Under the pieces are notes generated by a model that was given only the letters and a program-made list of their open reading frames with translations, was not told the DNA's origin and did not search any database. This document shows positions 49,259 to 51,289 of a DNA stretch of 64,000 bases, in pieces. The position numbers and the translations under genes are program-made. The stretch's first letter is position 1; every line of letters begins with the position of its first letter. This DNA comes from Candidatus Doudnabacteria bacterium (GTDB lineage: Bacteria; Patescibacteriota; Doudnabacteria; UBA920; O2-02-FULL-48-8): contig JBBCGO010000001.1 in the NCBI GenBank assembly GCA_037200925.1, forward strand, positions 696,235-760,234, in the 5' to 3' direction.

Positions 49259-49287
49259 TTGACAACCTTGGTAAATAACCCTATTAT
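49259..49287 (+). promoter_or_regulatory. candidate rRNA promoter
   Basis: TTGACA (49259-49264), 17 nt, TATTAT (49282-49287). About 350 nt upstream of the mature 16S 5' end. Confidence 0.4.
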
Positions 49288-49640
49288 ATTTGTACGTTAA
49301 AAATCTAATAAAGGAGCCTTAAAAAACACTACACGTTTTTGAGCCAATTTCTTTGATCCCGCAAGCTTATATGGGATATCAGGAAACACGAAGAAGCTCG
49401 TGTTTTTTACTTGCTTAAAGGTTTTTAAAGAACCTTAACAAATCAATACAGTAATAGATTGTACACTCAATAGACTTTGCAAGCAGTTTATTGGGAATAA
49501 GAATACGTCAATAACTTTGAATTTATAAAGGTTTATGTAATTGACCTTTTAAAAAAATAATTGCGCCAGTTTGTTTCTGAACAAGAAGCAAGCTCAACAA
49601 TTTCTGGTAGAGGTATCGCAAGAAATCCTCTCAACAGAAT

Positions 49641-51100
49641 TATATGAAGAGTTTGATCCTGGCTCAGGATGAACGCTGGCGGCGTGCCTAAGACATGCAA
49701 GTCGAAAGGGTTAGACCCTTGGCGAACGGGTGAGTAACGCGTGGGAACTTCCATTAAGTAGAGGATAACCTTCCGAAAGGGAGGATAATACTCTATGTGG
49801 CCGCAAGGCTAAAGATTTATCGCTTAATGCAAGGCCCGCGTCCCATCAGCTAGTTGGTAAGGTAAAAGCTTACCAAGGCTATGACGGGTAGCGGAAGCGA
49901 GAGCTTGATCCGCCACACTGGGACTGCGACACGGCCCAGACTCCTACGGGAGGCAGCAGTTTGGAATTTTGGACAATGGGCGAAAGCCTGATCCAGCGAC
50001 GCCGCGTGCGGGAAGAAGGACTTCGGTTCGTAAACCGCTTTTAGCAGGAACGAATTTTTGACGGTACCTGCAGAATAAGAGGTTGCTAACTCTGTGCCAG
50101 CAGCAGCGGTAATACAGAGACCTCAAGCGTTATCCGGAATCATTGGGCGTAAAGCGTGCCGATAGGTGGTTTTATTAGTCTTGGGTAAAAGCCAGAAGCT
50201 TAACTTCTGAGTTTGCTTAAGATACTGTAAAACTTGAGGGGCAAAGAGGTGCTTGGAACGAACGGTGTAGTAGTGAAATGCGTTGATATCGTTCGGAACA
50301 CCGAAAGCGAAGGCAGAGCACTGGGTGCCACCTGACACTGCTAGGACGAAAGCGTGGGGAGCGAATGGGATTAGATACCCCAGTAGTCCACGCTGTAAAC
50401 GATGAATACTAGGCATGCGCGAGTATCGACCCTCGTGCGAGCCGTAGCTAACGCGTTAAGTATTCCGCCTGGGGAGTACGGTCGCAAGACTAAAACTCAA
50501 AGGAATTGACGGGGACCCGCACAAGCGGTGGAGCATGTGGTTTAATTCGACGGTAAGCGAGGAACCTTACCAAGGCTTGACATGTAGCTGCAAGCGCACG
50601 GAAACGTGTGACCTTCGAGGGTGCTACACAGGTGCTGCACGGTTGTCGTCAGCTCGTGTCGTGAGATGTTCCCTTAAGTGGGAGAACGAGCGCAACCCCC
50701 GTAGTATGTTGATTTTCATACTAGACTGCCAGCGTTTAAGCTGGAGGAAGGTGGGGATGACGTCAAATCAGCGTGGCTCTTACGCTTTGGGCTACACACG
50801 TGCTACAATGGATAGGAACAAAGGGACGCAATACCGTAAGGTGGAGCAAATCCTCTCAAAAACTATCCTCAGTTCGGATTGGGGGCTGCAACTCGCCCCC
50901 ATGAAGCTGGAATCGCTAGTAACCGTGAATCAGCCTCGTCACGGTGAATACGTTCTCGGGTTTTGTACACACCGCCCGTCACACCATGGAAGTGGTTAAC
51001 GCCCGAAAGCCTCTTTTGAGGAATAAGGTGAGAATCATGACTGGGGTGAAGTCGTAACAAGGCATCGGTAGCGGAAGCTGTCGATGGATCACCTCCTTTC
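49641..51100 (+). rRNA. rrs: 16S ribosomal RNA (~1460 nt)
   Basis: Conserved blocks present: GAGTTTGATCCTGGCTCAG 5' end, ACTCCTACGGGAGGCAGCAG, GTGCCAGCAGCAGCGGTAATAC, AAACTCAAAGGAATTGACGG, TGTACACACCGCCCGTCACACC, and GGATCACCTCCTTTC at the 3' end. Confidence 0.9.
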
Positions 51101-51255
51101 TAAGGAGAATTCCGCAACATGTAGTACAGAGATTTCGATCTTTTGCTACTAGCGGTATATGGTCGATTGCTCAGACCTAAAGTCGGAGCGATACTAAAAG
51201 ATTTCAAAGTGAAAAGACGAAAAACTTATTCCCAATAATTTGTTTGCAAACAAAT

Positions 51256-51289
51256 AAAAGCCTCGTGGCCATTCGGTCAGAGGCTTTTT
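51256..51289 (+). terminator. intrinsic terminator after the 16S gene
   Basis: aaaagcctc...gaggc hairpin plus TTTTT. No 23S or tRNA follows. Confidence 0.5.

What the first reader, a model, noticed from the sequence alone, without database searches (positions are those of the whole stretch)
49259..51289. Stand-alone short 16S rRNA gene with its own promoter and intrinsic terminator; no 23S, 5S or spacer tRNAs
The 16S (about 1460 nt, roughly 80 nt shorter than E. coli) is followed within 160 nt by a terminator hairpin and then protein genes. tRNA-Ile(GAT) and tRNA-Ala(TGC), normally in the 16S-23S spacer, lie 12 kb away at 63.3-63.8 kb, also without a 23S. Unlinked rRNA genes are characteristic of some reduced or slow-growing lineages. 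The 515F primer region reads GTGCCAGCAGCAGCGGTAA (GCAGCGG instead of GCCGCGG), a variant that can reduce amplification with the standard primer. The 806R region reads ATTAGATACCCCAGTAGTCC.
Basis: seen in the sequence. Interest (0 to 1): 0.55.

Follow-up and report, generated by a model that had tools for sequence, protein, structure and literature searches.

The report
Stand-alone 16S rRNA gene, Patescibacteria
This is a real, intact 16S ribosomal RNA gene that sits alone as its own small transcription unit, which is the normal, already documented arrangement in the ultra-small Patescibacteria (CPR) bacteria it comes from, so it is correct but ordinary.

Summary
Window 49641-51099 (+) is a full-length bacterial 16S rRNA gene of 1459 nt (Rfam 1413 bits). 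No 23S or 5S gene lies between 58.7 kb upstream and 22.1 kb downstream of it. tRNA-Ile(GAT) and tRNA-Ala(TGC) lie 12.2 kb downstream. They are followed by a terminator and a type IV pilus operon, not by a 23S gene.

The unit is self-contained:
- a TTGACA-17-TATTAT promoter
- a leader of about 350 nt with boxA-like elements
- a 26-bp leader-trailer helix, the presumed RNase III stalk
- a strong intrinsic terminator

The promoter, the stalk and the terminator recur in relatives. In the more distant ones the stalk has a different sequence but the same pairing. Independent short-read contigs from two samples cross the downstream junction, and one crosses the upstream junction.

The source is a 964-kb contig of NCBI MAG GCA_037975565.1. 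The closest named 16S relatives (82-90%) are Candidatus Doudnabacteria. Among related species representatives, 47 of 48 also lack an adjacent 23S.

The 515F variant is C526A. It is compensated by G505U in the 530-loop pseudoknot in 119 of 119 relatives. A published modified primer already covers it.

Unlinked rRNA genes in Patescibacteria are published. Verdict: correct, already known, low interest.

The parts
49259..49287 (+). Sigma-70-type promoter of the 16S unit. The -35 hexamer TTGACA is at 49259-49264, the spacer is 17 nt, and the -10 hexamer TATTAT is at 49282-49287. The start site is inferred near 49294.
   Evidence: 11/12 match; the same element aligns in relatives L065 (TTGACA-17-TATAAT) and L111 (TTGACA-17-TATCAT), with the -35 hexamer invariant.
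49288..49640 (+). 5' leader of the pre-16S RNA, about 347 nt from the inferred start site.
   Evidence: Blocks of the leader are conserved in L065 and L111, while the protein genes around the unit are not shared with any relative's locus.
49381..49408 (+). Leader hairpin AAACACGA-loop-TCGTGTTT with a U-run, terminator-like, lying upstream of the boxA-like element. Its role is unknown; it could be a pause or attenuator site or a boxB analogue.
   Evidence: dG -10.9, z -2.5; stem and U-run are invariant in L065 and L111 and only the loop varies. The terminator scan did not flag it.
49418..49442 (+). Weak hairpin (49418-49436) overlapping a boxA-like element CCTTAACAAA (49433-49442). A second boxA-like stretch, GACCTTTTAAAAAAA, lies at 49543-49557.
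   Evidence: C(C/T/A)TTAACA recurs at the equivalent leader position in 7 of 8 relatives with leader sequence (L111 has CTTTCACA). It matches E. coli boxA TGCTCTTTAACAA at 9/13 positions by eye. The assignment is an inference only.
49476..49520 (+). 5' strand of the leader-trailer processing stalk. The main arm is 49476-49501; short extension helices are CGTC (49506-49509) and CTTTGA (49515-49520).
   Evidence: inverted repeat I1, 26 nt, the longest in the region. (25 of 26 positions paired counting G-U; score 51 against shuffles 24.4 +/- 2.9, maximum 38).
49641..51099 (+). 16S rRNA gene, 1459 nt, with no intron or insertion.
   Evidence: full-length Rfam match. (72.7% identity to E. coli; deletions confined to peripheral helices).
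50084..50112 (+). 530-loop region. U505 (50084) and A526 (50105) replace the E. coli G505-C526 pseudoknot pair. The 515F primer site is 50094-50112.
   Evidence: all 119 related loci carrying A526 have T at position 505.
50370..50389 (+). 806R primer site, a perfect match to the degenerate primer.
51121..51149 (+). Trailer hairpin capped by a UUCG tetraloop (AGAT-TTCG-ATCT at 51130-51141), just 3' of the mature 16S end.
   Evidence: In 8 sequences the 4 inner pairs are never broken, and 3 of the 4 show changes on both sides.
51204..51250 (+). 3' strand of the processing stalk: TCAAAG (51204-51209), GACG (51216-51219), and the main arm at 51225-51250.
   Evidence: The same arm is conserved in L111 and L044.
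51256..51289 (+). Intrinsic terminator of the 16S unit: GC-rich hairpin followed by TTTTT at 51285-51289.
   Evidence: Every relative with trailer sequence has a GC hairpin plus T-run directly after its stalk arm.
63306..63380 (+). tRNA-Ile(GAT), 12.2 kb downstream of the 16S on the same strand. A weak promoter-like site lies at 63242-63270.
63696..63769 (+). tRNA-Ala(TGC), 315 nt after tRNA-Ile.
63768..63816 (+). Terminator hairpin plus U-run directly after tRNA-Ala. The pilM promoter (TTGACG-17-TATAAT, 63876-63904) follows.
   Evidence: dG -22.8, z -4.6.. (pilM starts at window-equivalent 64005).
10257..10940 (+). RNase III gene (rnc), the presumed enzyme that cuts the leader-trailer stalk.
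   Evidence: Pfam Ribonuclease_3 plus dsrm on the called gene. (translation).
21287..22420 (+). nusA, a component of the rRNA antitermination complex.
   Evidence: NusA_N, S1, KH_5, KH_NusA_C.

Best explanation
This is the functional, probably single-copy 16S rRNA gene of a Patescibacteria (CPR) bacterium closest to Candidatus Doudnabacteria. It is organised as an independent monocistronic transcription unit, which is the normal 'unlinked rRNA' layout of this lineage.

Proposed mechanism:
- Sigma-70 RNA polymerase starts at the promoter at 49259-49287.
- It transcribes a leader of about 350 nt carrying boxA-like elements, which presumably recruit Nus factors. nusA is in the window.
- It then transcribes the 16S and a 190-nt trailer and stops at the intrinsic terminator at 51256-51289.
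- Leader 49476-49520 and trailer 51204-51250 pair into a long stalk that brackets the 16S. RNase III (rnc is in the window) presumably cuts this stalk to release pre-16S, and other nucleases then trim the ends.

The gene is short because five peripheral helices are truncated: h6, h10, h17, h39 and the tip of h44.

The 515F-site variant (C526A) is one half of a compensated swap of the 505-526 pseudoknot pair from G-C to U-A.

Shown here: the gene, the absence of a neighbouring 23S/5S, the sequence elements, and their conservation in relatives. Inferred: the transcription start and stop, Nus dependence and RNase III cleavage.
For: Gene identity and integrity:
- Full-length Rfam match of 1413.5 bits.
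- The anti-SD end, the decoding-site sequences and G529/G530 are present.
- The 95 deleted nucleotides map to E. coli positions 70-92, 200-213, 453-475, 1127-1142, 1435-1440 and 1462-1471.
- Relatives have similar lengths, for example L111 1462 nt and L054 1466 nt.

Unlinked status:
- No LSU or 5S in the window, in 9.2 kb beyond its end or in 9.1 kb before its start.
- About 19 protein genes on both strands lie between the 16S and tRNA-Ile.

Not an assembly artefact:
- Logan short-read contigs match the window at 100% over 44025-49677 and 50877-56998.
- A contig from a second sample matches at 99.8% over 50493-52228.
- The 3' 16S junction is crossed in both samples and the 5' junction in the first.

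Unit anatomy:
- Promoter, conserved in L065 and L111.
- 26-nt leader-trailer inverted repeat, significant against shuffles. In the more distant Doudnabacteria it is replaced by a different sequence that still pairs: CTTTAACAGCTGAATAGTGA with TCACTATTTAGCTGTTAAAG.
- Terminator with dG -19.6 and z -5.4, with equivalents in all relatives.
- rnc and nusA are encoded in the window.

Lineage norm:
- Of 48 related species-representative loci with at least 1500 nt after the 16S, 47 have no 23S. The exception has one 1978 nt downstream.
- Published: Patescibacteria form a clade with unlinked rRNA genes (10.1101/705046).
- Stand-alone 16S precursors cut by RNase III at a leader-trailer stem are shown experimentally in H. 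pylori (PMC6582327).

Pseudoknot swap: U505/A526 in the window and T505 in 119 of 119 A526-bearing loci.
Against: - There are no expression or end-mapping data. The promoter, terminator, boxA and RNase III site are predictions supported only by conservation.
A second, linked rRNA operon elsewhere cannot be excluded.
- The boxA-like match is short (8-10 nt) and would occur by chance several times in 64 kb. Only its positional conservation supports it.
- A terminator-like hairpin sits in the leader upstream of boxA, and the simple model does not explain it.
- The taxonomic placement rests on 16S BLAST identity to named MAGs, some of whose public titles are clearly unreliable.
Confidence: 0.9

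Rival explanations
1. Split but clustered operon. The 16S, the tRNA-Ile/Ala pair and a 23S-5S just outside the window still form one loosely connected rRNA region, perhaps co-regulated or even read through.
For: The 16S, tRNA-Ile and tRNA-Ala keep the ancestral order and strand. One relative (L027, Nealsonbacteria) has 16S, Ile, Ala and then 23S within 2 kb.
Against: The 9.2 kb beyond the window end is filled by the pil operon, with no LSU or 5S. Strong terminators follow both the 16S and tRNA-Ala. Several genes between them are on the opposite strand. The closest relatives (L111, L054, L084, L044) have neither tRNAs nor a 23S within 5-7 kb downstream.
Confidence: 0.05
2. Assembly artefact. 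The long contig was mis-joined at the rRNA gene, and the real genome has a normal 16S-23S-5S operon.
For: rRNA genes are classic break and mis-join points. The short-read assembly of the same sample does break inside the 16S.
Against: Short-read contigs read from unique flanking genes into the 16S on both sides (5' side in one sample, 3' side in two). The trailer, stalk arm and terminator directly after the 16S are conserved in independent genomes of relatives. 47 of 48 relatives show the same layout.
Confidence: 0.02
3. Decaying or non-functional extra 16S copy. Its shortness reflects erosion, and the working rRNA operon is elsewhere.
For: The gene is 83 nt shorter than the E. coli gene. A second rRNA locus cannot be excluded with the sequence available.
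Against: The match covers the full model at high score. The deletions are confined to peripheral helices, and relatives have a similar total length. Changes in paired regions are compensated: 505-526, the h18 stem, and the hairpin at E. coli 1087-1098. The promoter, stalk and terminator are conserved.
Confidence: 0.03

Closest known systems
Unlinked rRNA genes of Patescibacteria/CPR (Brewer et al., 'Unlinked rRNA genes are widespread among Bacteria and Archaea', bioRxiv 10.1101/705046)
   Same: The 16S is separated from the 23S by far more than the paper's 1500-bp criterion, and it belongs to the phylum the paper lists as a clade with unlinked rRNA genes. 47 of 48 related loci examined here show the same layout.
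   Different: No difference in kind. This report adds the anatomy of the unit (promoter, leader-trailer stalk, terminator) and its conservation within Doudnabacteria.
Stand-alone 16S precursor of Helicobacter pylori (Iost et al., NAR 2019, PMC6582327)
   Same: The 16S gene is separate from the 23S-5S cluster, and a long stem formed by leader and trailer brackets the 16S. In H. pylori that stem is experimentally cut by RNase III.
   Different: The phylum is unrelated and there is no sequence similarity in the flanks. Cleavage is untested here. No antisense RNA was looked for.
Canonical E. coli rrn operon (rrsH-ileV-alaV-rrlH-rrfH, NC_000913.3)
   Same: The promoter type, a boxA-like leader element, a leader-trailer stalk around the 16S, and the tRNA-Ile(GAU) and tRNA-Ala(UGC) identities and order (established knowledge of rrn operons).
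   Different: In E. coli the 3' stalk strand lies in the 16S-23S spacer and transcription continues into the tRNAs, 23S and 5S. Here the trailer ends in a terminator, the two tRNAs are 12.2 kb away, and no 23S is nearby. The 16S is 83 nt shorter.
Known V4 primer gap for Patescibacteria (Hu et al., Microbiome 2024, PMC10943839)
   Same: The window has one mismatch to 515F at primer position 12. That is one of the positions the paper made degenerate, and 515F_Mod and 806R_Mod both match the window perfectly.
   Different: As far as I read it, the paper treats this as a primer-coverage issue. The point made here, that position 526 co-varies with position 505 of the pseudoknot (119 of 119 loci), is a structural reading of the same variant.

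Membership tests
Bacterial SSU rRNA (Rfam RF00177) | Full-length match to the covariance model above the gathering score | tested here: met
   1413.5 bits against a gathering score of 50, model positions 1-1533, not truncated.
Bacterial SSU rRNA (Rfam RF00177) | Functional core intact: anti-Shine-Dalgarno 3' end, decoding-site sequences, 530 loop | tested here: met
   GGATCACCTCCTTT 3' end, GTACACACCGCCCGTCACACC, AAGTCGTAACAAGG and the GG of the 530 loop are all present. The 505-526 pair is kept as U-A.
Unlinked rRNA gene arrangement (Brewer et al. criterion) | More than 1500 bp between the 16S and the nearest 23S | tested here: met
   No LSU or 5S within 58.7 kb upstream or 22.1 kb downstream.
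Unlinked rRNA gene arrangement (Brewer et al. criterion) | A 23S (and 5S) gene exists elsewhere in the same genome | not testable with these tools
   Only about 82 kb of the 964-kb contig could be read.
Independent transcription unit | Own promoter upstream and own intrinsic terminator downstream, both conserved in relatives | tested here: met
   Promoter. Terminator. These are sequence-level predictions only; transcript ends were not measured.
RNase III processing stalk of pre-16S rRNA | Long helix formed between leader and trailer that brackets the mature 16S | tested here: met
   26-nt arms at 49476-49501 and 51225-51250, 25 of 26 positions paired. Relatives have the same helix, or one of different sequence with the same pairing.
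RNase III processing stalk of pre-16S rRNA | RNase III is encoded by the organism and cleaves the helix | tested here: inconclusive
   The rnc gene is present at 10257-10940. Cleavage cannot be tested in silico.
Nus-factor rRNA antitermination leader (boxA) | boxA sequence in the leader that binds NusB-NusE | tested here: inconclusive
   CCTTAACAAA at 49433-49442 resembles E. coli CTTTAACAA, and a similar motif recurs in relatives' leaders. nusA is present. nusB was not seen in the window, and binding is untestable.
Patescibacteria / Candidatus Doudnabacteria | 16S closest to members of the group | tested here: met
   Among loci with informative titles, the top hits (82-90% identity) are titled Candidatus Doudnabacteria. 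The overall best hit, L111 (91.5%), carries a 'Candidatus Saccharibacteria' title that looks unreliable, and L054 (83.5%) is titled only 'Patescibacteria group bacterium'. Magasanik-/Uhrbacteria-titled loci mostly score about 75-80%.
Patescibacteria / Candidatus Doudnabacteria | Formal placement by SILVA/GTDB phylogeny | not testable with these tools
   No rRNA reference tree or GTDB-Tk was available.

The most novel reading that the evidence does not exclude
The conserved leader hairpin with U-run (49381-49408), which lies upstream of the boxA-like element, and the UUCG-capped trailer hairpin are lineage-specific control elements. The first would be an attenuator or pause site and the second a 3'-end maturation or protection signal. 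Together they would let these bacteria set 16S output independently of 23S now that the genes are unlinked. That would be a concrete mechanism for balancing subunit stoichiometry without co-transcription.
Probability: 0.1. Interest if true: 0.4.

Novelty: already known. Interest (0 to 1): 0.15.

Why it matters
It matters little beyond bookkeeping. The window shows a clean, well-resolved example of the unlinked rRNA layout that is already documented for Patescibacteria. It also shows the V4-primer mismatch that causes these bacteria to be under-counted in amplicon surveys, a problem already addressed by redesigned primers.

The modest added value is anatomical. The whole unit from promoter to terminator is conserved as a module while the surrounding protein genes are not shared with any relative's locus. 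The leader-trailer stalk is maintained by different sequences in different Doudnabacteria. The primer-site variant is one half of a compensated pseudoknot base-pair swap.

Tried and rejected
- Locating the 23S-5S of this genome. The 23S therefore remains unlocated.
- RNAduplex on whole leader versus trailer. It produced uninformative full-length duplexes and was replaced by an ungapped helix search with shuffles. An earlier script timed out.
- First E. coli 16S reference (L123, NZ_CP091836.1). It turned out to be an odd 1520-nt copy and was replaced by K-12 rrsH.
- Small-RNA or riboswitch families in the leader and trailer. Nothing came near gathering scores.
- A truncated 23S start in the last 230 nt of the window. 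None was found. That stretch is the pilM promoter region.
- Synteny of flanking protein genes with relatives. tblastn gave no hits.
- Literature search for the exact variant string. No papers were found.
- Pfam on the immediate neighbour genes. No domains were found.
- The 22-mer variant in viral contigs. No hits.
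Full report
**1. Observation**

Rfam places a complete bacterial SSU rRNA at window 49641-51099 on the + strand: 1459 nt, 1413.5 bits, model positions 1-1533, not truncated. No LSU or 5S model matches anywhere in the 64-kb window.

ARAGORN and Rfam agree on tRNA-Ile(GAT) at 63306-63380 and tRNA-Ala(TGC) at 63696-63769. The last 230 nt of the window hold no truncated 23S start.

The promoter-like site TTGACA-17-TATTAT is at 49259-49287. The hairpin at 51256-51288, followed by the T-run at 51285-51289, folds at -19.6 kcal/mol with z = -5.4.

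The quoted primer-site sequences are exact. 515F has one mismatch at primer position 12 and 806R has none.

**2. Source and what lies beyond the window**

An exact-protein look-up places the window on NCBI contig JBBCBH010000057.1 (964,444 bp) of assembly GCA_037975565.1.

The 9.2 kb beyond the window end encodes PilM, PilN, PilO, two T2SSE ATPases, PilC, pilins and the prepilin peptidase. Rfam finds only the two tRNAs there. The 9.1 kb before the window start is densely packed with protein genes, and BLAST with E. coli 23S and 5S finds nothing.

So no 23S or 5S lies within 58.7 kb upstream or 22.1 kb downstream of the 16S.

About 19 protein genes, several on the opposite strand, separate the 16S from tRNA-Ile. 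tRNA-Ala is followed by its own strong terminator, dG -22.8, and then by the pilM promoter.

**3. Not an assembly artefact**

Short-read (Logan) contigs of the same sample match window 44025-49677 and 50877-56998 at 100%. A contig from a different sample (SRR10968259) matches 50493-52228 at 99.8%.

These contigs run from unique flanking genes into the 5' end (one sample) and the 3' end (both samples) of the 16S. They independently confirm both junctions.

**4. Lineage**

I scanned one genome per GTDB species for the 35-mer around the 515 site.

By BLAST the closest full-length 16S is L111 at 91.5%. The closest loci with informative titles (L044 90.2%, L029 87.8%, L065 87.6%, L084 87.0%, L090 85.1%, L100 84.2%, L034 82.1%) are all 'Candidatus Doudnabacteria'. 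Loci titled Magasanik-, Uhr- or related bacteria mostly score about 75-80%.

The other genes in the window fit a CPR genome: type IV pili, a 4477-aa ORF, and cohesin/dockerin surface proteins.

**5. The arrangement is the lineage norm**

Rfam on the 19 closest loci found a 16S in each and no LSU or 5S in any. Across all loci whose block includes the 16S 3' end, 48 have at least 1500 nt downstream. Only one of them (L027, a Nealsonbacteria complete genome) has a 23S, 1978 nt downstream after tRNA-Ile and tRNA-Ala.

Many ABY1-type relatives keep a tRNA-Ile(GAT) a few hundred nucleotides after the 16S. The Doudnabacteria loci do not. This looks like stepwise decay of an ancestral 16S-Ile-Ala-23S operon; that reading is an inference.

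Brewer et al. already list Patescibacteria among clades with unlinked rRNA genes (10.1101/705046).

**6. Anatomy of the unit**

- *Promoter.* The -35 TTGACA, a 17-nt spacer and a TAT(T/A/C)AT -10 align in the window, L065 and L111.
- *Leader.* It is about 347 nt long. It contains a conserved hairpin with a U-run at 49381-49408. It also has a boxA-like CCTTAACAAA at 49433-49442, and related motifs occur in all but one of the relatives' leaders.
- *Stalk.* The longest inverted repeat in the region pairs 49476-49501 with 51225-51250. 25 of 26 positions pair counting G-U; the score is 51 against 24.4 +/- 2.9 for shuffles. It continues through CGTC/GACG and CTTTGA/TCAAAG. L111, L065 and L044 keep the same arms.
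- *Stalk in the more distant Doudnabacteria.* L054, L034, L090, L091, L100 and L029 use a different pair of sequences that are again mutually complementary. This supports a conserved structure rather than a conserved sequence.
- *Trailer.* Just after the mature 3' end lies a hairpin capped by UUCG. Its inner pairs covary: 3 of 4 pairs change on both sides and none is broken in 8 sequences.
- *Terminator.* It follows the 3' stalk arm directly, in the window and in every relative with trailer sequence.
- *Trans factors.* RNase III (10257-10940) and NusA (21287-22420) are encoded in the same window.

The protein genes flanking the unit have no homologues in any relative's locus. What is conserved is the module from promoter to terminator.

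**7. Mechanism**

The sequence elements and their conservation are shown. The rest is inferred: transcription from about 49294 to about 51289, Nus-assisted elongation, leader-trailer pairing, RNase III cleavage, and trimming to 49641 and 51099.

The same logic is experimentally established for the stand-alone 16S of H. pylori (PMC6582327).

**8. Why the gene is short**

Against E. coli rrsH the window 16S is 72.7% identical. It has 95 nt deleted and 12 inserted. The deletions fall at:

| E. coli positions | Helix |
|---|---|
| 70-92 | h6 |
| 200-213 | h10 |
| 453-475 | h17 |
| 1127-1142 | h39 |
| 1435-1440 and 1462-1471 | h44 tip |

All of these are peripheral variable helices. Relatives have similar lengths. 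Some relatives carry the insertions typical of CPR instead: a group I intron in L044 and about 900 nt extra in L090. The window gene has none.

**9. The 515F variant**

The change is C526A. In E. coli, positions 505-507 pair with 524-526 to form the functional 530-loop pseudoknot (established knowledge: Powers and Noller 1991). The window has U at 505, so G505-C526 has become U505-A526.

In all 119 scanned loci that carry A526, the unconstrained position 505 is T.

The consequence for primers is known. The standard V4 pair matches only 0.5% of ABY1 and 6.3% of Parcubacteria. The published 515F_Mod (GTGYCAGMAGBNKCGGTVA) matches this site perfectly (PMC10943839).

**10. Verdict**

However, the feature is the expected, published state for this phylum. 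Novelty: already known. Interest: low (0.15).

Open items:
- The location of the 23S-5S is undetermined, because the tools could not reach the rest of the contig.
- The role of the terminator-like leader hairpin upstream of boxA is unexplained.

Noticed in passing
window 23462-36895 (+): A single 13.4-kb ORF of 4477 aa with no Pfam match at E <= 0.01. It is followed by an 863-aa protein with surface Ig-like and SpaA-type domains, and by cohesin- and dockerin-domain proteins at 40.2-45.2 kb. This looks like a giant surface-protein cluster of the kind seen in CPR genomes.
   Followed up: partly
window 1-6000, next to tRNA-Leu(TAG) at 6987-7073: A block with 54-59% G+C against about 45-50% elsewhere. 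It encodes a 595-aa Ser/Thr protein kinase, a VWA-domain protein and zinc-ribbon-like proteins, all on the minus strand. It may be a horizontally acquired island beside a tRNA gene.
   Followed up: partly
window 49381-49408: A terminator-like hairpin plus U-run inside the 16S leader, upstream of the boxA-like element. Stem and U-run are invariant in the two closest relatives with leader sequence (L065, L111). Its function is unexplained.
   Followed up: partly
window 51121-51149: A UUCG-capped hairpin immediately after the mature 16S 3' end. It is conserved across Doudnabacteria with compensatory stem changes, and may be a 3'-end maturation or protection element.
   Followed up: partly
window 50671-50682: The hairpin equivalent to E. 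coli 1087-1098 (GGGUUAAGUCCC) is flipped to CCCUUAAGUGGG. L111 and L044 share this, and other relatives have further compensated variants. It gives a 3'-terminal mismatch to primer 1100R. Primer 1492R also has 3 mismatches near its 5' end.
   Followed up: partly
window 63381-63695: The spacer between tRNA-Ile and tRNA-Ala is 315 nt long. It holds an 83-codon ORF (63390-63641) with hydrophobic stretches that is not called as a gene in the public annotation table and has no Pfam hit.
   Followed up: partly
window 49162-49190 (-) and 51303-51331 (+): A perfect 12/12 sigma-70 promoter with an extended -10 TG diverges from the 16S promoter toward the upstream gene. A second TTGACA-17-TATTAT promoter starts 14 nt after the 16S terminator and serves a 100-aa gene of unknown function.
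   Followed up: no
L044 6825-6998; L090 682-3041; L091 6029-6157: Several relatives carry extras. L044 has a group I intron inside its 16S. L090 has about 900 nt of extra sequence inside its 16S. L091 has a LOOT RNA about 1.3 kb downstream of its 16S.
   Followed up: no
loci L005, L007, L009, L016 and many others (record titles): Dozens of 'binchicken' TPA MAGs are titled 'uncultured Gammaproteobacteria' or 'uncultured Candidatus Saccharibacteria' but carry 16S genes of the same Patescibacteria type as the window. The public titles look like placeholders or mislabels.
   Followed up: no
L123 5497-7016 (E. coli NZ_CP091836.1): One annotated E. coli 16S copy is only 1520 nt long. Its V3-V4 region differs strongly from K-12 rrsH, suggesting a chimeric or contaminated assembly. 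This is unrelated to the window.
   Followed up: no
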